Of a DNA stretch of 20,000 bases, positions 408-20,000 are shown piece after piece (the first letter of the stretch is position 1; each line of letters opens with the position of its first letter). The notes below the pieces were generated by a model. It was given only the letters and a program-made list of their open reading frames with translations, was not told the origin of the DNA and ran no database searches. The stretch comes from Spongospora subterranea f. sp. subterranea. Lineage: Eukaryota. The translations under genes and the position numbers were made by a program. The DNA lies in assembly GCA_049724395.1 (NCBI GenBank), contig JAUGWO010000113.1:173563-193562 (forward strand), written 5' to 3'.

Positions 408-900
408 TGTAACGGGACTTTTCCGTTCATGTTCCGGCAGATGTGTTGCGTCACCAAGCCGCTAATCGCAAAGCGTTGCGTCATGATGCGTGACGCTGCC
501 GGATTGGGCAAGACGAGATTGGTTGAGACATGTGGTTCATTTGTTTAAGACAATTAATCTTTATGATGCCATGGGTTCATGCCTTTGAGACGATTTTCAT
601 CTTTATAAAGCCATTTTGTTCTAACGCTTGAATCTCTGAGGCCGACGTCTCGCAAACCGTCACATTACCAATTTGTGAATGATTGTGAGAACCGCTCGTC
701 GGCCTCAGAGATTGAAGCTTTAAAACAGTATGGCTTTATAAAGATCAACCGTGGGAAAGAAATGAACCCCATAGTCTCAACCAATTTCGTCTTTCCCAAT
801 GCGGTAGCGTCGTGCCTCATGACGCAACACATCCCGACCAATACGATCATCTTGGTGACGCAACACATCAGCCGGAACATGGACGGAGGTTCCCGTTACA
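408..900. mobile_element. 493-bp non-autonomous fold-back element with TGT...ACA ends and 4-bp TSD (Ginger/TDD-like MITE)
   Basis: Starts TGTAACGGGA (408) and ends TCCCGTTACA (900). AGGT flanks both sides (404-407, 901-904). Imperfect inverted arms run almost to the centre (~665-672). It splits a 67-bp unit (GGGCAGTTCTA..ACAGGT | AGGTGTCCTGG). The Ginger assignment is inferred from the termini and TSD length only. Confidence 0.8.
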
Positions 901-2142
901 AGGTGTCCTGGTGTAGCAGCACATGTATCGCAATCTGATAAGACTTAACGATGGGCAGTTCTATGACAGGTGTCCTGGTGTAGCAGCACATGTATCGCAA
1001 TCTGATAAGACTTAACGATGGGCAGTTCTATGACAGGTGTCCTGGTGTAGCAGCACATGTATCGCAATCTGATAAGACTTAACGATGGGCAGTTCTATGA
1101 CAGGTGTCCTGGTGTAGCAGCACATGTATCGCAATCTGATAAGACTTAACGATGGGCAGTTCTATGACAGGTGTCCTGGTGTAGCAGCACATGTATCGCA
1201 ATCTGATAAGACTTAACGATGGGCAGTTCTATGACAGGTGTCCTGGTGTAGCAGCACATGTATCGCAATCTGATAAGACTTAACGATGGGCAGTTCTATG
1301 ACAGGTGTCCTGGTGTAGCAGCACATGTATCGCAATCTGATAAGACTTAACGATGGGCAGTTCTATGACAGGTGTCCTGGTGTAGCAGCACATGTATCGC
1401 AATCTGATAAGACTTAACGATGGGCAGTTCTATGACAGGTGTCCTGGTGTAGCAGCACATGTATCGCAATCTGATAAGACTTAACGATGGGCAGTTCTAT
1501 GACAGGTGTCCTGGTGTAGCAGCACATGTATCGCAATCTGATAAGACTTAACGATGGGCAGTTCTATGACAGGTGTCCTGGTGTAGCAGCACATGTATCG
1601 CAATCTGATAAGACTTAACGATGGGCAGTTCTATGACAGGTGTCCTGCTGTAGCAGCACATGTATCGCAATCTGATAAGACTTAACGATGGGCAGTTCTA
1701 TGACAGGTGTCCTGCTGTAGCAGCACATGTATCGCAATCTGATAAGACTTAACGATGGGCAGTTCTATGACAGGTGTCCTGCTGTAGCAGCACATGTATC
1801 GCAATCTGATAAGACTTAACGATGGGCAGTTCTATGACAGGTGTCCTGCTGTAGCAGCACATGTATCGCAATCTGATAAGACTTAACGATGGGCAGTTCT
1901 ATGACAGGTGTCCTGGTGTAGCAGCACATGTATCGCAATCTGATAAGACTTAACGATGGGCAGTTCTATGACAGGTGTCCTGGTGTAGCAGCACATGTAT
2001 CGCAATCTGATAAGACTTAACGATGGGCAGTTCTATGACAGGTGTCCTGGTGTAGCAGCACATGTATCGCAATCTGATAAGACTTAACGATGGGCAGTTC
2101 TATGACAGGTGTCCTGGTGTAGCAGCACATGTATCGCAATCT
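901..2142. repeat. Tandem array of a 67-bp unit, about 18.5 copies
   Basis: Unit AGGTGTCCTGGTGTAGCAGCACATGTATCGCAATCTGATAAGACTTAACGATGGGCAGTTCTATGAC starts at 901, 968 ... 2107. Copies are identical except for one G>C change in four adjacent units (starts 1638, 1705, 1772, 1839). Confidence 0.98.
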
Positions 2143-5617: not shown

Positions 5618-6580
5618 ATGTTGGAGTTGCTATTATACGCCACTCTCACGACCATAGCATGTTCGTGTCCAGACAATGAACTCAAATCTCCCCCGTTCTA
5701 TTCCAATCCCGTTTTCTCCCTCGCTCAAGTCTCTCATGACCAGGATTCCTCACAAACTAATCTACCTGTTCAATCGTCTCTCCCCAGTACCGTTGAACCT
5801 CAACCAGCGTGTGCTTCCTCCTTTGACCCTGACCAATTACCTCATGATGACATTTTTCACCAATTTATTGACTACTCACAGGTCGATGCTTTCCACCCGA
5901 CGTTGCAATCCAAAATAGCCATCCTCAAACATCGAATGGATGTGTCCTTCTGCCACTATGTCGTCAGAATCTGTGATGACTATCGCGATATTAGTTCAAA
6001 TACCCAAAGTCTTTATCAGGATTTGATCAAACGTTTTCGACATGATATTGCGGAGGCGGAGAAAGAATTGTGTCAAAATTGGTTCAATCTGGCTGTCCGC
6101 TTGCTGCGACAAATCTATGGTCGTCTGCCTCGGCGTGGTGTCGACGTTATCAAACGAGCACTCGAACAACGTTTTGGTCCAGATAATGGCAATGTGTTTT
6201 TTTTGGCATATCGTAAACGCTCTGGTAAAGCCTTGCAAAGTCTCGTGTGGAGACTGAATGAACCCAACTTCCACATATTTCATTTTTTGCATGCGTTTTT
6301 GACTCATTTGTCATCATTCCCCCTTCTTCTTGAATATATCAGATCCAACTTTTCTCCTGACCAGCAACCGAGTGCCTACGTCCTGGACAATACCGTCATG
6401 ACTCATGTTCGTGGATGTCAGAACACTGCATTCGCCCGGCTTTGGAATAAGAGACATGAACTCCTATCCGAAAACAACAAACGCTTGCACCAACTTCAAC
6501 TTGCTTTCACGAACTTCAAGCTCCCAGATTGTCCAAACAATAATCAAAGGTTCTCCATTGATAAACAGTCAAAGTATTGA
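5618..6580 (+). CDS. Hypothetical protein, probably secreted (effector-like); may be the 5' part of a longer disrupted gene
   Basis: Longest ORF (320 aa) with a true ATG. It has a hydrophobic N-terminus (MLELLLYATLTTIACSC), a Pro/Ser/Gln-rich linker and a helical-looking body. A TATATAT motif lies at ~5523. No family recognised. Confidence 0.6.
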   Translation: MLELLLYATLTTIACSCPDNELKSPPFYSNPVFSLAQVSHDQDSSQTNLPVQSSLPSTVEPQPACASSFDPDQLPHDDIFHQFIDYSQVDAFHPTLQSKIAILKHRMDVSFCHYVVRICDDYRDISSNTQSLYQDLIKRFRHDIAEAEKELCQNWFNLAVRLLRQIYGRLPRRGVDVIKRALEQRFGPDNGNVFFLAYRKRSGKALQSLVWRLNEPNFHIFHFLHAFLTHLSSFPLLLEYIRSNFSPDQQPSAYVLDNTVMTHVRGCQNTAFARLWNKRHELLSENNKRLHQLQLAFTNFKLPDCPNNNQRFSIDKQSKY

Positions 6581-10739: not shown

Positions 10740-11463
10740 GCTACGAATCCACCTGAGGAAGAGAGGCGCCGCCGTCGCCAACTCGGTCTTTGTCTGTATG
10801 GCGGCTATCAACACATGATAAGCTAATCGCCAACCATCTGTCTCACTAAACTCTACTCGTCAGCCTTACTCCAGGTTTATCATTACTGGGCGCGTAGGTC
10901 CTCATCATTCTTGTGATCCAGTAAAAATGATGGTGGATAGCGGGGCGGGCGCCAGCTTTGTTAGTTCATCCATTGCTTCTGCTTTCCAGTTAAGAACGAA
11001 CAGAGCTAAATAGAGCAATCCGGGTTTCTTGTTTTAACGATCGTTTGGGAGCGTATATCGGCAGCTGACGTCCGAATTGGCGATAGCTGCTTTTATTGGA
11101 AATTTTATATTCTGTCTCATTCACAGTTCGACGTTATTCTTGGTTATGATTGGTTAAAGAAGTTCAACCCACAGATAGACCGGAAAACTGGTAAGTTGAA
11201 TCAACTCAGGCTGGATCTTTAGTCATTCCGTTGCATCGATGTCCAGCCATGAAATTCCACTCCCGTACTGCCGGAACTCTACTGTGATTTCACATATGTA
11301 TTTTGAAAAAAAAACCTGATGAACTACTGCCACATCGTCCTTATGATTGCTCGATCCCGATTTCCATGTTGGCTCCTTTCACACAATTGGACCAATTTAC
11401 CGCCTATCGCAAAAGGAGATAGAAGCGCTGCGCGAACACCTCAATGAGAATTTTCAGAAAGGT
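10740..11463 (+). mobile_element. Ty3/gypsy (Tf1/sushi-chromovirus-like) LTR retrotransposon relic: gag Zn-knuckle, aspartic protease, RT N-terminus
   Basis: PEEERRRRRQLGLCLYGG..H (degenerate knuckle), MMVDSGAGASFV (~10928), FDVILGYDWLKKFNPQIDRKTG, PDELLPHRPYDCSI, GPIYRLSQKEIEALREHLNENFQKG. Several stops and frameshifts; truncated at ~11463. Confidence 0.9.
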
Positions 11464-11845
11464 TCTTGATTCTTTGTAGAATTATTCATAAGTTCACTAT
11501 ATAGATGTTCGATTCCGTGTTGGCTGGAGCCATATCGGCCATTACAGGTGCGTGGCGTTCATTGTTTCATATGTTTGTTATTATCACATCGATGATGATC
11601 GTTATTTCTGCAGTGGGTGCCGTCGGCAGCTGTGTCTGTTGGAACCGGTCGGCTGGGTCATCGCTTCTGCGCTGACGACGGTCCCTAATTCAGTTTTAAC
11701 AAACGCACACGCCGACTGCAGCGACTGCAGAAATAACGATCATATATGAACGCCACTCACCTGTAATGGCCGATATAATAGCTCAAGCCAACACGAAATC
11801 GAACCTCTATAGTGAACTTATGAGTAATTCTAGAAAGAATTAACA
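11464..11845. mobile_element. ~380-bp fold-back element / long inverted repeat
   Basis: 11466-11562 pairs with ~11746-11843, and 11595-11647 with ~11690-11743. There is a ~30-nt bulge in the left arm. No TSD found. Confidence 0.75.
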
Positions 11846-11852
11846 ACAATGA

Positions 11853-12187: not shown

Positions 12188-12944
12188 TAGCTTGGGTCCT
12201 GTCTGTCCCAGTTGGTGGCAGGCATGTCAGGGTGAGTGCTACCAACTTAACCCGAAAATAACACATGGTGTTGTACTGTATTCGAATTTCCCTAAAATCG
12301 AACATCCGGGCGTTCGACTCTATAACATCTGGGTGTTCGTTCTGCCAAAATCCAAATACAACACCACTTCCAAGGTGCTGTATTCGATTTAGAACACCTG
12401 GTTTTATTATCGTATCAGTCGGGGAAATTGACATAGCTGGATCGGGGAATTCGACATCGCTGGACTATATTTTCTTGCACGAGTTCAACATCCTGAGTAG
12501 CCGCAGGAGCAGTATACAAAACCGAAGACGTGGTCTCAGCGTTTACGACTTTGATATTCCAATTCTCCTTGATTGACATGGCATAATCTCCAACTCCTCT
12601 GCGGCAGTATCTTGCTCCAGTTCAGCATAATATGATTCACTGGTAATGTCTTGCAGCTCTGGAACCGATCTCATGAAATGCAAAAGCTCCGTTTTGTAGT
12701 CTTCCCAAGCAGACTCGTTGCTACCCACTTTACGTGCGATGCACAAATGTATAAGCTCTCCTTTTCCGAATCGGGTAAAAACCAGTTTGAAGGTTCGAAT
12801 GTTTCTTCAACCAGTACTGATTCGGTATCAATATAGGACGAGTACAGATCATTCCAGGAGTCAAGATCAAAGGAAGGCTCGAAGAGCGCTTTCAGTGGCG
12901 GATGCAGCAGGCTAAGATCAAAGACCTTTTAGGTACAAGACCAC

Positions 12945-13635
12945 AATCAAAAAAGCGTTTGTAATTTGTTCGACTGTTTTGGTTTTTGTCCATTCGACGT
13001 TCCAGTTGGAGACAGATATATAATTAGGGACTTTGGGGTTGCCAGTCCGTGTTTGAAGCTCTGGGTCTTCCAATGCTTGCCCAATTTATCATAGCAGGTC
13101 TGATATTAGGATTGAAAACTTCTATTGACAGCCACATCTAACGGTTGCAAGATGTTTGTCAAATTGGGAGGAATGATGACAGTGAAGATGTTGTACTTTC
13201 TAGAGTTTTTAACTCGGCCAGCTTGATATGCACACCATAAAAATCAATGATAAAAAGAATAGGCTCTCTCATGAACGAAGTCTCCATCCGGGAAACCAAT
13301 GCATCCTTGACAAATTGAAGTAACATTTCGTCATTCCACTTTCCCGTCTTATTTACTTCGACAAGCACGTCTTTTGTTAACAGACGGCTTGTTTTTGTGG
13401 TCAGAAAATAGCAGGTGCGATTTGAGTAGTTTGCCGTCGCCAGTAATGGCAAATGTCACAGTAAATCGTTTATGACTGGTCCCTCCTTTTCTCAGAAAAA
13501 CCTTAAAACGAGTCAGTACTGTAAATTACGAGTTATGTGAGTTCATCATTAACTGATCGTTGACGATGCCTCAGTCTTAAAGTATCAAGGTACTTGGTCC
13601 ATGTTAATAATGTTCTTGACTTTGATCGAGTGTGT
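12945..13635 (-). mobile_element. pogo/Tigger-type DDE_1 transposase pseudogene
   Basis: NIINMDQVP (~13590-13615), [73 protein letters not shown], with frameshifts and stops. Confidence 0.9.
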
Positions 13636-14403
13636 CTCAATTAGACGATGAACAGACTGAACGAATGAAAAAAAAGACAATGATCAAACAAAGAAAGAAG
13701 AACTGCTACAAAAAGTTGAAAGATAAGGATCAACGACAAATGCTCAAACAACGATGCCTCAACAAAACAAAAAAGACAACTGAAAATCACACAATGTTTT
13801 GCGCGCCTTAAGGTTAAAGCGAAACAAGTAAAGAATAACAGAAATTTCTGATTATAGCACAATGGAACGCATGTTCATTAAGCGAGGAGAAGGCAACCGA
13901 ACTGGCTTACTTTGCGAATCAACACCTAATAGATGTATTTAGTATTGCAGAGCAGAAACATCGACGTAATATTCAGGGATTTCCACAATACGAGTGTGAT
14001 GATCGATACACACAATCAGAAATATTTTGGCGAGAACATGTCAAAATAGAAAAACTATATCCTCCGGCAGTTCAATGCTTTGGAGAATTCGCTATGTACA
14101 ACACAAAAATAACTGAGACCCCGGATATTCTCAAAGGAACAAAAAATTTAAAAAAAATGTAGTACAGTACCTATTTGGAGGTCACTTTTTTTTTCAAAAA
14201 TTCAAACGCCGCGCCGCCCCAATCAAAGTTCAAGGACTTGGACTGTGTCAACGCAATATTTTAGACGCAATCATCTAAAAATAGCTTTTTAGCTTGGATT
14301 TACCAAGCCCTCATACGTGACTGGGCACGTGAACGTATTGGATAAGAACGCATAGTCACCGCTGCATGTGGTGATCCAATCCATGGCATGAACTCTTTGG
14401 TCA

Positions 14404-14810
14404 TCAACTTCGTTGGATGTTAAACTGGTGATACTTGTTCTCCGATATGAAGTGTGACGTATCGGTCTCTGAGCATGGCGTCAGCGTTGAGAGGCTTTCT
14501 GCGTCAGCGTTGGTACGGGCAGATGGTACTGATGGGGTTTCCTTCAGGTTTAGCGAGTGCAACACGATTCGCCAATCGTCAGCCCGGGCCCTGGGTCGCC
14601 AGATAGGAGATCCTAACACGGTGGCGTTCTGGCACAACGTAGAGGCAGTGTATGATGATGCGAGCAGCAGTTCGCTCGTGTTCTTCAGAAGGGATGCATC
14701 GCTCCCTGTGATGCCGAGCTTTGACCGACCCGCGTCTACAATCCTTCTTGCAGTAGCCTCTGGGATGCCGAAGTACACAAAATCCTGGGTTGGTGAGAAT
14801 CTCATGGCAT
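14404..14810 (-). pseudogene. Gene fragment of unknown function, possibly with a SAM-like N-terminal segment
   Basis: Open, GC-richer frame. DAMRFSPTQDFVYFGIPEATARRIVDA loosely resembles SAM-like 'GIP.G.A.RI' helices. The opposite strand is also open, so the strand is uncertain. Confidence 0.3.
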
Positions 14811-15538
14811 CCAACGCACATGCACTGTTAAGACTGCTACATAATGCAGGATGGCGGCGGCAAAAGACCAACAATTCGCCATGATTGTATACGATTTCAT
14901 GAAGGCATTCGATAGAGTGCAACGAACACTGCTGATCCAGAAAATGAGGGGAATGGGGATAGATCATATCTGATACTACTGATTGATGACTGGCTAACAA
15001 CCAGAGTATTTGAGGTGAATTGCAGAAACACCAATTCTAAATTACATAGACAGGAGAATGGTATTCCACAGGGATCCAGTATAAGTGTGTTGCTGTGGAT
15101 AATCTACATATATGACGCCCCTACAAACATTGTATTCAATGAATACTCACCCACAAACAAATTGACTCAGACGACCAAAACAGTGCAATACCTAGGAGCA
15201 ACGCTAAACGCCAATAACGAAAATAACCACTCAACTTTCACGATTCAACTGACAGAAGTGGCCAACGATATAAGGAAATGATGTAAACTGGTACGAGAAA
15301 TGAGAAAATACCGGATACCATACAGAACATATCAACAGTTATGTCGAGGATTTATAGGAAAGAAACTGAACTATTACCTACCTTGGTTGGCAGTAGAAAT
15401 CAGCAAGAGCATGAGTAGAACATTGCGACCCAATGTTTCAGACCAACACCAATCCCTATATTACATGCAATATCCGGATTCCTACTATTGAGAGATAAAA
15501 TCATTACTGAAACAACAATGACAGTAGTCGCTGCTCAG
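14807..15538 (+). mobile_element. Non-LTR (LINE) reverse transcriptase relic
   Basis: SNAHALLRLL, AMIVYDFMKAFDRVQRTLLIQKM, ENGIPQGSSISVLLWIIYIYD, TVQYLGATL. The YADD segment is deleted and there are frameshifts. Interrupted at 15538 by the TRIM array. Confidence 0.9.
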
Positions 15539-17980
15539 TGTTAGGAACTGCGCTCGAGATACACAGTTACCAACTGACCCAAAAGGTACTATGATGGCAC
15601 AAGGCCATCATTCTCGGGTCCTTATATGCCTAAGACTTTTTCATCATGACATTATCCCCATGTTTAGGAGCGACCCCCATGACCTTCCAGCCCCCGTGGA
15701 TTATCCTCTGACTGGTGAGCATAGAAACGAGATAACACAGTTGAGAGAGAAGGAAGAAGACGAAACAATCCAGCCAGGCGGGGAAGTCTGACCACGAAAG
15801 GTATATAAGGCAACCCCCATTGCCGTTACATGTAAGCCGCGAGTGACCCCAAAATGCTGTGAACACTAAGGAAATCGAACTCACGACCTTGATAGCCATC
15901 ATACTGTTAGGAACTGCACCCGAGATACACAGTTACCAACTGACCCAAAAGGTACTATGATGGCACAAGGCCATCATTCTCGGGTCCTTATATGCCTAAG
16001 ACTTTTTCATCATGACATTATCCCCCTGTTTAGGAGCGACCCCCATGACCTTCCAGCCCCCGTGGATTATCCTCTGACTGGTGAGCATAGAAACGAGATA
16101 ACACAGTTGAGAGAGAAGGAAGAAGACGAAACAATCCAGCCAGGCGGGGAAGTCTGACCACGAAAGGTATATAAGGCAACCCCCATTGCCGTTACATGTA
16201 AGCCGCGAGTGACCCCAAAATGCTGTGAACACTAAGGAAATCGAACTCACGACCTTGATAGCCATCATACTGTTAGGAACTGCACCCGAGATACACAGTT
16301 ACCAACTGACCCAAAAGGTACTATGATGGCACAAGGCCATCATTCTCGGGTCCTTATATGCCTAAGACTTTTTCATCATGACATTATCCCCCTGTTTAGG
16401 AGCGACCCCCATGACCTTCCAGCCCTTAGCTTGGTTCTGGTCTGTCCCGGTTGGTGGCAGGTTAGGACCAGGTCAGTGTGAGACTTGAGTTCGAAAACCC
16501 CGTGGGCAGGGATTTTGGGGAACACCCTAAGGTTGGCCAGCTAATACGGAAGTAGAGCGAAGGTTGAGCATGGCAGGAACGAACCTCTGGAAAAATACCG
16601 ACAGCTGATTTGTAATGATGCGACTTGGGTTCAAGGCATTGTGGTGTTCCGTAAGGGAATTTTCCCCCGTGTCCTAATGGTAAGGGGGTTTTTAGTGAGT
16701 CAGGTCATGGGATCAACCTCACACTACTACAATGTCGGTCAGACTGCAGAACATTCAGCGAAGGTATCTATTGCAAGTGCGAGCTTGCTACTGGGAGGAG
16801 CTTTAGAGGCGAGAGCCGAAAAAGTGAATCTTGGCCCGATAGCCAAGGGACCGGCAAACCTGCATGAAAAATGCGAACTCAATCACAAAAAAAAAAAAAA
16901 AAAAAAACCTTCCAGCCCCCGTGGATTATCCTCTGACTGGTGAGCATAGAAACGAGATAACACAGTTGAGAGAGAAGGAAGAAGACGAAACAATCCAGCC
17001 AGGCGGGGAAGTCTGACCACGAAAGGTATATAAGGCAACCCCCATTGCCGTTACATGTAAGCCGCGAGTGACCCCAAAATGCTGTGAACACTAAGGAAAT
17101 CGAACTCACGACCTTGATAGCCATCATACTGTTAGGAACTGCACCCGAGAATACACAGTTACCAACTGACCCAAAAGGTACTATGATGGCACAAGGCCAT
17201 CATTCTCGGGTCCTTATATGCCTAAGACTTTTTCATCATGACATTATCCCCCTGTTTAGGAGCGACCCCCATGACCTTCCAGCCCCCGTGGATTATCCTC
17301 TGACTGGTGAGCATAGAAACGAGATAACACAGTTGAGAGAGAAGGAAGAAGACGAAACAATCCAGCCAGGCGGGGAAGTCTGACCACGAAAGGTATATAA
17401 GGCAACCCCCATTGCCGTTACATGTAAGCCGCGAGTGACCCCAAAATGTTGTGAACACTAAGGAAATCGAACTCACGACCTTGATAGCCATCATACTGTT
17501 AGGAACTGCACCCGAGATACACAGTTACCAACTGACCCAAAAGGTACTATGATGGCACAAGGCCATCATTCTCGGGTCCTTATATGCCTAAGACTTTTTC
17601 ATCATGACATTATCCCCCTGTTTAGGAGCGACCCCCATGACCTTCCAGCCCCCGTGGATTATCCTCTGACTGGTGAGCATAGAAACGAGATAACACAGTT
17701 AGCATGAGAGAGAAGGAAGAAGACGAAACAATCCAGCCAGGCGGGGAAGTCTGACCACGAAAGGTATATAAGGCAACCCCCATTGCCGTTACATGTAAGC
17801 CGCGAGTGACCCCAAAATGCTGTGAACACTAAGGAAATCGAACTCACGACCTTGATAGCCATCATACTGTTAGGAACTGCACCCGAGATACACAGTTACC
17901 AACTGACCCAAAAGGTACTATGATGGCACAAGGCCATCATTCTCGGGTCCTTATATACCTAAGACTTTTGGATCATGACA
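15539..17980 (-). mobile_element. Tandem array of a TRIM (miniature LTR retrotransposon): 6 LTRs and 5 internal regions, 366-bp period
   Basis: LTRs at 15539-15651, 15905-16017, 16271-16383, 17130-17243, 17497-17609 and 17868-17980; on the minus strand each reads TGTCATGA...CCTAACA. A PPT AAACAGGGGGATAA abuts the downstream LTRs (one substitution in the first unit). The array begins and ends exactly on LTR termini. The internal region is 253 bp with no retroelement coding motifs. Confidence 0.9.
16426..16907 (+). mobile_element. SINE-like retroposed insertion with poly(A) tail and 12-bp TSD
   Basis: ACCTTCCAGCCC is duplicated at 16414-16425 and 16907-16918, with an A21 tail at 16887-16907. 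A-box-like TAGCTTGGTTCTGG and B-box-like GAGTTCGAAAA lie near the 5' end, and a CTTGGC..GCCAAG stem-loop near the 3' end. Neighbouring array units show the empty site. Confidence 0.9.
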
Positions 17981-18040
17981 ATTAACATATGCTTCTCTTA
18001 GATTAGTCATATCCATTGTCATCAATCGCACGATGAACAG
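17981..18040 (+). mobile_element. Displaced continuation of the copia RT fragment
   Basis: Joining 18773 to 17986 through the ATTAA duplication restores DTYSSVLTYASLRLVISIVINRTM, matching the copia RT pattern TYSPV....S.R.LL. Confidence 0.75.
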
Positions 18041-18084
18041 GCGGGTCGGACGAGATGGGTTAAATATGCTAACACATCGTATTA

Positions 18085-18225
18085 TGAACCTCGTGAACCA
18101 CCTAACCAATGTGGAGTACCCAAGAACGTACCACGAGGCAATGCAGATGCCTGACAGTATGCACTGGCATAAAGCCGCACTTCAAGAGATGAAATCATTG
18201 GAAGAAAACAACACATGGTCACTGG
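18085..18225 (+). repeat. 141-bp direct duplicate of copia segment 18477-18617
   Basis: Identical sequence encoding NLVNHLTNVEYPRTYHEAM...EENNTWSL. Confidence 0.95.
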
Positions 18226-18259
18226 GCTATAAGTCTACATAGCTACTGCTCATTTGAGA

Positions 18260-18313
18260 CACAAGGCCATCATTCTCGGGTCCTTATATACCTAAGACTT
18301 TTTCATCATGACA
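18260..18313 (-). mobile_element. Partial TRIM LTR (retains the TGTCATGA terminus), flanked by CTCAG
   Basis: CACAAGGCCATC...TCATCATGACA followed by CTCAG (18314-18318), the same pentamer that precedes the array (15534-15538). Confidence 0.9.
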
Positions 18314-18388
18314 CTCAGGTCAATTTGGGCAGAGAATACACGAAATGGACTGGGAAAGGAGATGGATGGACACCACTTGGAGAAGTAA

Positions 18389-18773
18389 GATGTTTTATTC
18401 GAGGATAAATTCCCGAACCAGGAGCGACCGAGCGACCATGACCCTATTGAAATAATCGATGATCATGGATTCGAACTGAACCTCGTGAACCACCTAACCA
18501 ATGTGGAGTACCCAAGAACGTACCACGAGGCAATGCAGATGCCTGACAGTATGCACTGGCATAAAGCCGCACTTCAAGAGATGAAATCATTGGAAGAAAA
18601 CAACACATGGTCACTGGTAACTTTACCAGCCAATAACAACGTGATTAAAGGACGATGGGTCTTTACTAAGAAGCAATCCGATGGGAAAGCTAAGTACAAA
18701 GCACGATTCGTCGCTAAAGGCTATTCCCAAATTTATGGCATCGATTACCACGACACGTATTCCTCTGTATTAA
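18389..18773 (+). mobile_element. Ty1/copia pol fragment (integrase-RT linker and RT N-terminus)
   Basis: DVLFEDKFP...YPRTYHEAM..WHKAALQEMKSLEENNTWSLV..VIKGRWVFTKK..KYKARFVAKGYSQIYGIDYHDTYSSV, cut by a TRIM at 18774. Confidence 0.95.
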
Positions 18774-19220
18774 TGTTAGGAACTGCGCCCGAGATACACA
18801 GTACCAGTTACCAAACTGACCCAAAAGGTACTATGATGGCACAAGGCCATCATTCTCGGGTTTTTATATACCTAAGACTTTTGGATCATGACAGTATCCC
18901 CCTGTTTAGGAGCGACCCCCATGACCTTCCAGCCCCCGTGCGACTTCCTAGATTATCCTCTGACTGGTGAGCATAGAAACGAGATAACACAGTTGAGAGA
19001 GAAGGAAGAAGACGAAACAATCCAGTCAGGCGGGGAAGTCTGACCACGAAAGGTATATAAGGCAACCCCCATTGCCGTTACATGTAAGCCGCGAGTGACC
19101 CCAAAATGCTGTGAACACTAAGGAAATCGAACTCACGACCTTGGTAGCCATCATACTGTTAGGAACTGCGCCCGAGATACACAGTTACCAACTGACCCAA
19201 AAGGTACTATGATGGCACAA
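18774..19220 (-). mobile_element. Diverged TRIM copy (LTR 18774-18893, internal region, truncated LTR 19157-19220)
   Basis: Same unit with small insertions and PPT AAACAGGGGGATAC. The left flank ATTAA (18769-18773) equals the flank at 17981-17985. Confidence 0.9.
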
Positions 19221-19396
19221 TATTAGACGATAGTGGTAGTGGTAGTGGTAGTGGTCGATGGTAACGTTAATGAGTACTATAGAAGAGTGACGTTTATTGT
19301 CATTGATGATGTGTTTAATACACATAGTTGAGTCATGCTTATCAATGACTCAACATGAATCATGCGGAAGATGAAAATATCGCCTTACGGTTAATA
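19221..19396 (-). repeat. Putative 3' LTR of the copia element with TATTA...TAATA termini
   Basis: It follows the RNase H region and a purine-rich AATAGCGAAGGTGCG. It has inverted ends TATTA/TAATA, a minus-strand AATAAA (~19293-19298), (AGTGGT)4 at ~19232-19255 and a GTTGAGTCAT..ATGACTCAAC hairpin. The partner LTR is not in the window. Confidence 0.55.
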
Positions 19397-20000
19397 CGCA
19401 CCTTCGCTATTGAATCTGGAGCTAGTTCGGTGTTTAAAATCTTGTGTCGGTGGGTTTCGAACTTCTGCTCGCTCAATGGTTTTGTAAAAAGGTCCGCAAT
19501 CATTGTTTCAGTTGGGCAGTATACGACTTTGATCCGGCCTTCCTTGATCTTTTCCCGGATAAAATGGTACTTGATATCCACATGTTTGGTTCTTGACTTA
19601 TTGCAGTCGTTTGTTTGAAGAAAAATCGCTCCCTGGTTGTCCTGATGGAGGATGGACCTCTTGTTTGTGATGATACGTAGTTCCGCTAATAGGTCTTGCA
19701 ACCAGATCGCTTCCTTTGTGGCGTCACACGCGGCCATATATTCGGCCTCTGTGGTAGATAAGGTTACCGCTTTCTGCTTTGTACTTTTCCATGAAATAGT
19801 ATTGTTGCCTATTTTGTAAATCCATCCAGTCGTCGATTTGCGGTCGTTTTTGTCACCGGCAAAATCGCTGTCGGCGTATCCTTGGATAGTTGATGAACCT
19901 TTTGTAAAAGTGAAGCCCGAGTTCTTGTGTAGTGTTTAAATACTTGATAATTTTCTGGATTGCTCTCCACAGATTTGGTGATGGTGATGTAACATAGCGG
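19360..20000 (-). mobile_element. Ty1/copia pol C-terminus (RT end and RNase H), frameshifted, runs off the window
   Basis: LWRAIQKIIKYL, a frameshift near 19917, then GYADSDFAGDKNDRKSTTG, ISWKSTKQKAVTLSTTEAEYMA, HQDNQGAI, RTKHVDIKYHFIRE and YCPTETMIADLFTKPL. Confidence 0.97.

What the first reader, a model, noticed from the sequence alone, without database searches (positions are those of the whole stretch)
15539..17980. The 366-bp 'satellite' is a tandem array of a miniature gypsy-type LTR retroelement (TRIM)
Seen: on the minus strand each period is a 113-bp LTR (TGTCATGA...CCTAACA) plus a 253-bp non-coding interior ending in AAACAGGGGGATAA directly against the next LTR. Four junctions with foreign DNA (15539, 17980, 18313, 18774) fall exactly on LTR termini and carry two matching pairs of 5-bp flanks. 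Known: TG..CA ends, a 5-bp TSD and a GGGGGATAA/TAC-TGTCA junction are typical of Tf1/sushi-group (chromovirus) Ty3/gypsy elements, and tandem-array TRIMs are described mostly in plants. Inference: this is a recently active ~480-bp non-autonomous element, expanded by LTR-LTR unequal recombination or multimer integration.
Basis: partly seen in the sequence, partly recalled or inferred. Interest (0 to 1): 0.8.

Follow-up and report, generated by a model that had tools for sequence, protein, structure and literature searches.

The report
Self-priming miniature retrotransposon in tandem array
A gene-less jumping DNA element of about 480 bases sits here head to tail and at many other sites in related samples; it likely starts copying itself by folding back on its own RNA, as the yeast element Tf1 does, and it may carry a tRNA-type promoter split between its end repeat and its core.

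Summary
Real, and a TRIM. The unit is a 113-bp LTR plus a 253-bp non-coding interior; 15539-17980 holds six LTRs and five interiors, one split by a poly(A) insert. Correction: the two ends of that interval do not share a TSD. CTCAG pairs 15539 with 18313 and ATTAA pairs 17980 with 18774, so the locus is rearranged. Both are true TSDs: other runs hold the empty sites. Contigs leave into unrelated flanks at the LTR ends, and one run suggests roughly 65-130 interiors. New here: the primer site is no tRNA site. It pairs 9/9 with the LTR 28 nt below a TATA box, the Tf1 self-priming layout, and full-length chromoviruses share both LTR junctions. The array most likely grew in place from one variant copy. 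A possible Pol III promoter is split between LTR (A box) and interior (B box); about 30% likely. No autonomous partner was retrieved. This scan noted a self-priming TRIM before in another genome (e1-9820285). Verdict: new variant of a known kind, interest 0.45.

The parts
15534..15538 (+). 5-bp target-site duplication CTCAG, left copy (target: a decayed LINE RT region)
   Evidence: empty site joint 15538->18325 in X1 and X5; RVT_1 hit at 14916-15278, below the curated cut-off
15539..15651 (-). LTR 1 (3'-most LTR of the array); keeps the common G at plus-strand LTR position 14 and has a private T at 16
15652..15904 (-). interior 1 (253 bp), PPT with one change
15872..15882 (-). B-box-like motif in the interior (nt 23-33); one base off the strict consensus
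   Evidence: variants in diverged relatives
15895..15903 (-). primer-binding site (interior nt 2-10), complementary to the element's own LTR; repeated in every unit
   Evidence: relatives stop matching at 15895
15905..16017 (-). LTR 2
15936..15947 (-). A-box-like motif in U5 (LTR positions 71-82); one base off the strict consensus
15956..15964 (-). predicted start of R and self-primer (LTR positions 54-62)
   Evidence: start site inferred, not mapped
15970..15977 (-). U3 arm (LTR positions 41-48) that forms a hairpin with the R copy of the 3' LTR
   Evidence: pairing probability 0.89-1.0
15988..15992 (-). TATA-like box, 28 nt upstream of the predicted start
16018..16030 (-). polypurine tract abutting the LTR
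   Evidence: the common form of this junction is shared with chromoviruses
16018..16270 (-). interior 2 (253 bp)
16271..16383 (-). LTR 3
16384..17129 (-). interior 3, interrupted by the poly(A) insert
16426..16906 (+). SINE-like insert with poly(A) tail and 12-bp TSD (16414-16425 / 16907-16918)
   Evidence: very high summed contig depth in X1 and X2
17130..17243 (-). LTR 4 (one extra A)
17244..17496 (-). interior 4
17497..17609 (-). LTR 5
17610..17867 (-). interior 5 (258 bp, 5-bp insertion)
17868..17980 (-). LTR 6, chimeric: left part of array type, right part like the copy at 18774
17981..18030 (+). ATTAA plus 45 bp of the copia RT that continues the frame ending at 18773
   Evidence: (joint 18768->17981; loose end behind 18030)
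18031..18259 (.). patch: 54 bp unplaced, 141-bp exact copy of 18477-18617, 34 bp unplaced
18260..18313 (-). half LTR (plus-strand LTR positions 60-113), the true end of the CTCAG insertion
18314..18318 (+). TSD CTCAG, right copy
18769..18773 (+). TSD ATTAA in a copia RT (RVT_2)
18774..19220 (-). second insertion, of the common 263-bp-interior type: LTR 18774-18893, interior 18894-19156, half LTR 19157-19220 (positions 1-64) cut by the end of another element

Best explanation
This is a gene-less, dispersed LTR retroelement (a TRIM) that is likely copied in trans by a Tf1/sushi-type chromovirus and is predicted to prime its own reverse transcription without a tRNA. Shown: LTR-interior anatomy, two 5-bp TSDs with empty sites, many dispersed copies, and a 9-nt site right after the LTR that is complementary to LTR positions 54-62. 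Inferred mechanism: transcription starts near LTR position 54; the RNA 5' end folds onto the primer site across a U5 stem; the helper's RNase H would cut off this 5' piece and its RT would extend it, as in Tf1; the G-rich tract would prime the second strand; the helper's integrase would insert the cDNA with a 5-bp duplication. A U3 hairpin is predicted to cover the second R copy at the 3' end so that it does not compete for the primer site. The array likely grew in place by unequal LTR-LTR exchange from one variant copy inserted in a LINE (TSD CTCAG, true extent 15539-18313). A SINE then landed in one unit, and a repair event patched about 330 bp copied from the neighbouring insertion and its copia flank into the last LTR, which crosses the TSDs.
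For: Empty sites: joint 18768->17981 with 5 shared letters in X2 (depth 1576) and X5; joint 15538->18325 in X1 and X5 (2 of 3 contig runs each; the raw RNA run X24 had 0 reads). Loose ends with low agreement (0.49-0.7) at 15904/15905 and 16017/16018 in X1, X2 and X14 (22 of 135 rows shown). Single interior contigs in X2 have depth 5696-7036 against 53-86 for long contigs, about 65-130 copies (rough). Primer-site complement 9/9: 0.0008 in 20000 LTR shuffles and 44 of 26576 background 12-mers; pairing probability 0.92-1.0 if the RNA ends near LTR position 71. Five listed contigs of diverged relatives (X1 records 5, 6; X2 records 27, 28; X12 record 10) match the LTR and stop at 15895, the last base of the primer site. 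The common PPT|LTR junction occurs in 121 listed metagenome loci; 18 of the 33 with 3 kb upstream carry a sense chromovirus integrase, 0 of 33 a copia RT/RH. Three full-length copies of one such family (L058, L005, L051; gag-PR-RT-RH-IN-chromo) also begin their interior with GTAT and pair 11/11 with their own LTR. In-place growth: all five interiors share a 10-bp deletion nearly absent from four runs, and LTRs 2-6 share A at position 14 while terminal LTR 1 keeps the common G. Self-priming in the Tf1/sushi group: PMC4600332, PMC6317226 (passages).
Against: No autonomous partner from the same organism was retrieved; the chromoviruses found share only the junction motifs, come largely from a few metagenomes and the three full-length ones are one family. 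The start site is not mapped. If the RNA ran to the end of the 3' LTR, primer pairing drops to 0.59-0.68. Whole-RNA folding is unremarkable (z -1.2 to -2.0). Self-priming is also predicted for TAR-lineage copia elements (PMC6317226), so it does not by itself prove a gypsy helper. The case for in-place growth rests mainly on one LTR site. No run spans the array or the 18030-18260 patch, so the rearrangement could in part be an assembly error. The pairing changes among the three chromoviruses are all CpG transitions and are weak covariation.
Confidence: 0.78

Rival explanations
1. Same element and priming, but transcribed by RNA polymerase III from a split tRNA-type promoter: A box in U5 of the LTR, B box in the interior just past the primer site. 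Only an LTR followed by an interior would be a full promoter, so solo and 3' LTRs would be silent and every unit of an array active. The T4 run at LTR positions 68-71 would end the RNA with an 18-nt R, the length reported for Cassandra. This adds to the best explanation and does not exclude it.
For: A-like motif at +18 and B-like core 67 nt further on; such a pair occurs in 19 of 2000 dinucleotide shuffles of the unit and 0 times in 26.6 kb of background. In diverged relatives the listed changes fall at 15864-15872 and 15883 and none in 15873-15882; the change at 15872 (5 contigs in X1, 2 in X2, 2 in X14) makes the B box match the strict consensus, and one loose end in X2 keeps the B core in otherwise unlike sequence. 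The SINE-like insert has the same B core. 18-bp terminal redundancy in Cassandra: PMC10886601 (passage).
Against: The search pattern was written after seeing the sequence. Both boxes fail the strict consensus by one base in the window and differ by one base each from the motifs given for Helenus. No tRNA hit by Rfam at E up to 10 or ARAGORN. The same T4 lies at +15 in the 5' LTR and another at element position 164, and would have to be read through. The B region is also part of a predicted RNA stem, which could explain its conservation. A TATA box at -28 fits Pol II equally, and the unit is present in an oligo-dT library (X12, depth 220; DNA carry-over not excluded).
Confidence: 0.3
2. The array was inserted at once as a multimeric cDNA (read-through transcript or template switching), or copied from an array elsewhere.
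For: Units are about 99% identical; multi-unit transcripts and template switching are proposed for Cassandra arrays (PMC7215508, passages). A single TSD pair bounds the array.
Against: One cDNA should give terminal LTRs with the same U5, but LTR 1 and LTR 6 differ at positions 14 and 16, and LTR 1 keeps the common base that LTRs 2-6 have lost. The 366-bp type is nearly absent from four other runs, so no donor array is seen there.
Confidence: 0.25
3. The element is primed by a tRNA or tRNA half and moved by a copia element, like fungal Helenus; the LTR complement is incidental.
For: 5-bp TSDs also fit copia; fungal Helenus uses anticodon-loop priming and copia helpers (PMC10886601 section 3.6). 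A copia family of about 17-22 copies is present in the runs. The site shares 5 nt with the half-iMet type of primer site (recalled).
Against: The interior does not begin with TGG; 9/9 complement to the element's own LTR at a TATA-defined position; the PPT|LTR junction goes with chromovirus integrase in 18 of 33 loci and with copia RT/RH in 0 of 33. Host tRNAs could not be tested.
Confidence: 0.1
4. A plain satellite or an assembly artefact with chance TG..CA ends.
For: No run spans the array; no metagenome contig holds the exact 19-mer across the primer site and LTR end.
Against: Empty target sites, dispersed flanks at exact termini, unit-specific changes including a SINE insertion with its own TSD.
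Confidence: 0.03

Closest known systems
TRIMs and tandemly arrayed TRIMs of plants (PMC4717578, passages), bivalves (PMC6934838, passages) and ants (PMC3532108, passages)
   Same: Under 1 kb, 100-250-bp LTRs, non-coding interior, PPT, short TSD, L(n)I(n-1) arrays.
   Different: Those are described with a tRNA-complementary primer site, or with no identified site (biv-TRIM, where self-priming is only mentioned for other elements). Here the site pairs with the element's own LTR.
Tf1/Tf2, Tj1 and Tf1/sushi-group chromoviruses (PMC4600332, PMC6317226, PMC5006619; passages)
   Same: Primer site complementary to the 5' LTR; same PPT|LTR junction and interior start as three full-length chromovirus copies fetched here; 5-bp TSD.
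   Different: No gag or pol, 479-489 bp instead of about 7.4 kb (L058), a 9-nt instead of an 11-nt duplex, a U3 hairpin over the 3' R copy, tandem arrays.
TRIMp3: Cassandra, Helenus, Ajax (PMC10886601 passages and section 3.6; PMC7215508 and PMC10853983 passages)
   Same: Non-autonomous, arrays, possibly an internal Pol III promoter and an 18-nt R.
   Different: In those the small-RNA-derived promoter lies wholly inside the LTR and priming is by tRNA; Kojima found no LTR-primer-site complement in Helenus. Here the candidate boxes straddle the LTR end and no tRNA- or 5S-like segment is detected.

Membership tests
TRIM | Two short direct terminal repeats with TG..CA ends, total under 1 kb | tested here: met
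   113-bp LTRs, monomer 479 bp (489 bp for the common type)
TRIM | Non-coding interior | tested here: met
   253-263 bp; only short stop-free stretches; too short for gag or pol; not scanned against Pfam
TRIM | PPT before the 3' LTR | tested here: met
TRIM | 4-6-bp TSD, dispersed copies | tested here: met
   two 5-bp TSDs with empty sites; unrelated flanks at termini
TRIM | Primer site right after the 5' LTR; tRNA-complementary in the original description | tested here: inconclusive
   A primer site is present but pairs with the LTR; no TGG start; host tRNAs not available. Filed as a self-priming variant
Tf1/sushi chromovirus (autonomous) | gag-PR-RT-RH-IN-chromodomain ORFs | tested here: not met
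   none in the element; it works like a derivative but is not a member
Tf1/sushi chromovirus (autonomous) | Primer site complementary to the RNA 5' end | tested here: met
   9/9 complement; the RNA 5' end itself is inferred
Tf1/sushi chromovirus (autonomous) | RNase H release of the self-primer | not testable with these tools
   needs biochemistry
Tf1/sushi chromovirus (autonomous) | A partner in the same genome sharing LTR and primer site | tested here: inconclusive
   two long contigs (15.7 kb in X1, 21.2 kb in X2) share LTR part and primer site and then diverge but cannot be read; no genome
TRIMp3 (Helenus, Cassandra, Ajax) | tRNA- or 5S-derived promoter wholly within the LTR | tested here: not met
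   no Rfam or ARAGORN hit; the B-like core lies in the interior
TRIMp3 (Helenus, Cassandra, Ajax) | Transcription by Pol III | not testable with these tools
   only contigs were available for RNA runs

The most novel reading that the evidence does not exclude
A TRIM free of both usual host and helper signals: it primes itself like Tf1 and is transcribed by Pol III from a promoter split across the LTR end (A box in U5, B box behind the primer site), so that only an LTR followed by an interior fires. Solo and 3' LTRs would be silent and each added unit in an array would be a new complete gene, which would favour arrays.
Probability: 0.28. Interest if true: 0.72.

Novelty: new variant of a known kind. 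Interest (0 to 1): 0.45.

Why it matters
TRIMs are defined with a tRNA primer site, and annotation pipelines filter on that site (PMC13570524 and PMC4717578, passages), so self-primed TRIMs would be missed. My searches returned no paper describing one, though the library lacks most subscription journals and such an element is an expected derivative of Tf1-type chromoviruses. At under 500 bp it is a minimal natural set of cis signals for Tf1-type replication (primer duplex, U5 stem, U3 shield hairpin, PPT) that could be tested in trans in fission yeast. A split Pol III promoter, if real, would be an architecture not found in two searches and would give arrays a selective logic. The family also looks polymorphic between isolates and could serve as a marker.

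Tried and rejected
An exact 19-mer across primer site and LTR end found 0 metagenome contigs. Rfam found nothing at gathering scores in the window and one chance hit at E 7.1 in 15500-17000; ARAGORN found no tRNA. The 2026 raw RNA run X24 had 0 reads on the region, which is no test. The circular 406-nt contig in RNA run X12 is no evidence of tandem transcripts, because a monomer with two LTRs also closes a loop in an assembly graph. Summed contig depth could not give an LTR-to-interior ratio, so the share of copies in arrays is unknown. The window's own gypsy fragment gave no tblastn hit to the fetched chromovirus loci and cannot be named as helper. Local alignment of the element to 1-330 and to the 67-bp satellite gave only 8-9-nt matches, so I rejected a shared origin. 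Protein searches did not name the host. An excised-circle model for the crossed TSDs was considered because 18260 and 19220 overlap by 5 bp (LTR positions 60-64, the loop of the U3/R hairpin); I prefer a patch inserted into the last LTR, since 19221 is the end of another element with different flanks in other contigs, but the two are not resolved. Of 51 loci with 1.5 kb upstream only 8 hit the integrase query; widening to 3 kb gave 18 of 33; the other 88 of 121 loci were too short and were left out of that count, and 8 of the 15 misses carry upstream ORFs with unrelated, non-retroelement Pfam families. Lin and Levin 1997 is not held and is cited only through PMC6934838.

Full report
Observation. 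Tandem Repeats Finder reports two blocks, 15539-16425 and 16907-17980. Alignment resolves them into six LTRs of 113-114 bp and five interiors of 253-258 bp. The gap is a 481-bp insert with a poly(A) tail and a 12-bp TSD in interior 3. Three more LTR pieces lie at 18260-18313, 18774-18893 and 19157-19220, the last two around a 263-bp interior. The minus strand is the sense strand: the interior ends in a G-rich tract against TGTCATGA. The four outer junctions fall on LTR termini and give two matching 5-bp pairs, about 3e-6 by chance. The pairs are crossed: CTCAG lies before 15539 and after 18313, ATTAA after 17980 and before 18774.

The TSDs are real. No genome is held. Twenty of 24 listed runs hold part of the region, from seven studies. 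Laying three contig runs and one raw RNA run on 14400-20000 showed a joint from 18768 back to 17981 with five shared letters in X2 (depth 1576) and X5. This is the copia RT without the element; the frames on both sides fit and the left part is RVT_2. A joint from 15538 to 18325 in X1 and X5 carries one CTCAG and a sequence like 18319-18324: the LINE region without the element. So the CTCAG insertion spans 15539-18313, and 17927-18259 or so is a patch inside its last LTR, made of the end of the ATTAA insertion, its copia flank, a 141-bp copy of 18477-18617 and two unplaced pieces. This reading is inferred; no run spans the patch.

The element is dispersed. On one period (15685-16050) 573, 123, 5 and 47 contigs were laid from X1, X2, X12 and X14. 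Among the 22 loose-end rows shown of 135, contigs leave into unlike flanks before 15904/15905 (X1 five contigs, agreement 0.49; X2 two; X14 one) and behind 16017/16018 (X1 two, X2 three, X14 one). Single interior contigs in X2 are 65-130 times deeper than long contigs, a rough copy number. The common form differs from the array units by a 10-bp longer interior and at 15774, 15918, 16007-16008 and 16018, and matches the window's copy at 18774-19220. The array is thus an expansion of one variant copy that is nearly absent from these four runs.

Priming. The interior does not start with TGG. Its nt 2-10 are the exact complement of LTR positions 54-62, which lie 28 nt below a TATA box. A match of 9 nt arises in 0.0008 of 20000 LTR shuffles and in 44 of 26576 background 12-mers. 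An RNA from position 54 folds its 5' end onto this site around a U5 stem, with pair probabilities of 0.92-1.0 if it ends near position 71 of the 3' LTR and 0.59-0.68 if it ends at 113. In the 3' LTR the same R sequence is held in a hairpin by U3 positions 41-48 (0.89-1.0), which would keep it from competing. Diverged relatives give an independent mark: five listed contigs match the LTR and stop at 15895, the last base of the site. This is the layout described for Tf1 and Tj1 (PMC4600332, passages) and the Tf1/sushi group (PMC6317226, passages).

Helper type. The common PPT|LTR 17-mer occurs in 121 listed metagenome loci; none resembles the TRIM beyond about 40 bp at the junction. Of the 33 with 3 kb upstream, 18 have a sense hit to a chromovirus integrase taken from L020 and none hits a copia RT/RH query; 8 of the 15 misses have unrelated upstream genes. 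L058, L005 and L051, three copies of one family, encode gag, RT, RNase H, integrase and chromodomain (protease shown for L058). L058 has a 5-bp TSD. All three begin the interior with GTAT, as the TRIM does, and pair 11/11 with their own LTR, one with a G-U pair. The TRIM therefore shares both junction types with self-priming chromoviruses. The actual helper was not retrieved; two long contigs in X1 and X2 that share the LTR and primer site are candidates.

How the array formed. LTRs 2, 3 and 5 are identical; LTR 1 differs from them at two sites and LTR 6 at three. LTRs 2-6 share A at position 14, where 48120 of 48439 depth units in X1 read G, and LTR 1 keeps G. One mutation in the 5' LTR after insertion, spread by unequal exchange, explains this. 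A single multimeric cDNA needs a reversion, a conversion or a template switch. The SINE-like insert is in one unit only and came later. Both routes are discussed for Cassandra (PMC7215508, passages). I put in-place growth at about 0.65.

Possible split Pol III promoter. An A-box-like 12-mer lies at LTR positions 71-82 and a B-box-like core at interior nt 25-30. A loose pattern, written after seeing the sequence and based on recalled consensus motifs, finds such a pair in 19 of 2000 shuffles and in none of 26.6 kb of background. Strict patterns fail by one base each. In diverged relatives no listed change falls in 15873-15882, several fall beside it, and the change at 15872 restores the strict B box. 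Against it: no tRNA similarity, T4 runs at +15 and element position 164, an RNA stem over the same bases, and presence in an oligo-dT library. The three chromoviruses show no such pair. About 0.3.

Comparison. TRIMs and their arrays are known from plants (129 subfamilies with arrays in 35 of 43 genomes; PMC4717578, passages), bivalves (up to 58 LTRs; PMC6934838, passages) and zebrafish Helenus (PMC10886601, passages and section 3.6). The array is ordinary. A self-primed TRIM did not appear in searches, and a promoter split across LTR and interior did not appear in searches; I saw listings and abstracts' openings for most hits and read passages of twelve papers, no supplements. An earlier AI note of this scan reports a self-priming TRIM in another genome (e1-9820285); my test came before that look-up. 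Another note names the host of this genome as Spongospora (e1-10702345); I could not verify it, though rhizosphere RNA runs hold the sequence. Searches listed no TRIM description for plasmodiophorids; in the two papers searched for the word the passages shown concern sequence trimming.

Verdict. The element is a real, dispersed and probably recently mobile TRIM (about 0.95). It likely self-primes and uses a chromovirus helper (about 0.8). New variant of a known kind, interest 0.45, rising to about 0.7 if the split Pol III promoter holds.

Noticed in passing
window 16426-16906: SINE-like poly(A) element with 12-bp TSD and a B-box-like core near +63; very high summed contig depth in X1 and X2; a 35-bp piece of its 5' end recurs at 12188-12222.
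   Followed up: partly
window 901-2142 and 255-303: 18.5 copies of a 67-bp unit at 99% identity; part of the unit recurs at 255-303, on the far side of a long inverted repeat. The unit contains short words that also end the TRIM LTR, but alignment found no real similarity.
   Followed up: partly
window 422-887 and 11462-11847: Two long imperfect nested inverted repeats (MITE- or foldback-like); the second starts where the gypsy fragment breaks off.
   Followed up: no
window 10860-11460: Decayed gypsy protease and start of RT on the plus strand (RVP_2 and Asp_protease hits).
   Followed up: partly
window 5618-6577: Intact 320-aa ORF with a hydrophobic N-terminus and no homologue in Pfam, two protein collections or the atlas; possibly a secreted orphan protein.
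   Followed up: yes
window 19221-20000: End of a copia-type element on the minus strand (RNase H ORF 19360-19935, about 17-20 copies by depth). Other contigs have different flanks at 19221, and the end is not TG..CA; a short hairpin lies near 19329-19357.
   Followed up: partly
window 18260-18264 and 19216-19220: Both half LTRs break at the same five bases (LTR positions 60-64), the loop of the U3/R hairpin; possibly a breakage or insertion hot spot.
   Followed up: partly
window 13159-13455: Fragment 73% identical to a DDE_1 (pogo-like) transposase, P0149.
   Followed up: partly
L058, L005, L051: Full-length chromoviruses of about 7.2-7.5 kb with long antisense-independent 3' regions of about 1-1.5 kb between integrase and PPT, and an 11-nt self-priming duplex.
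   Followed up: partly
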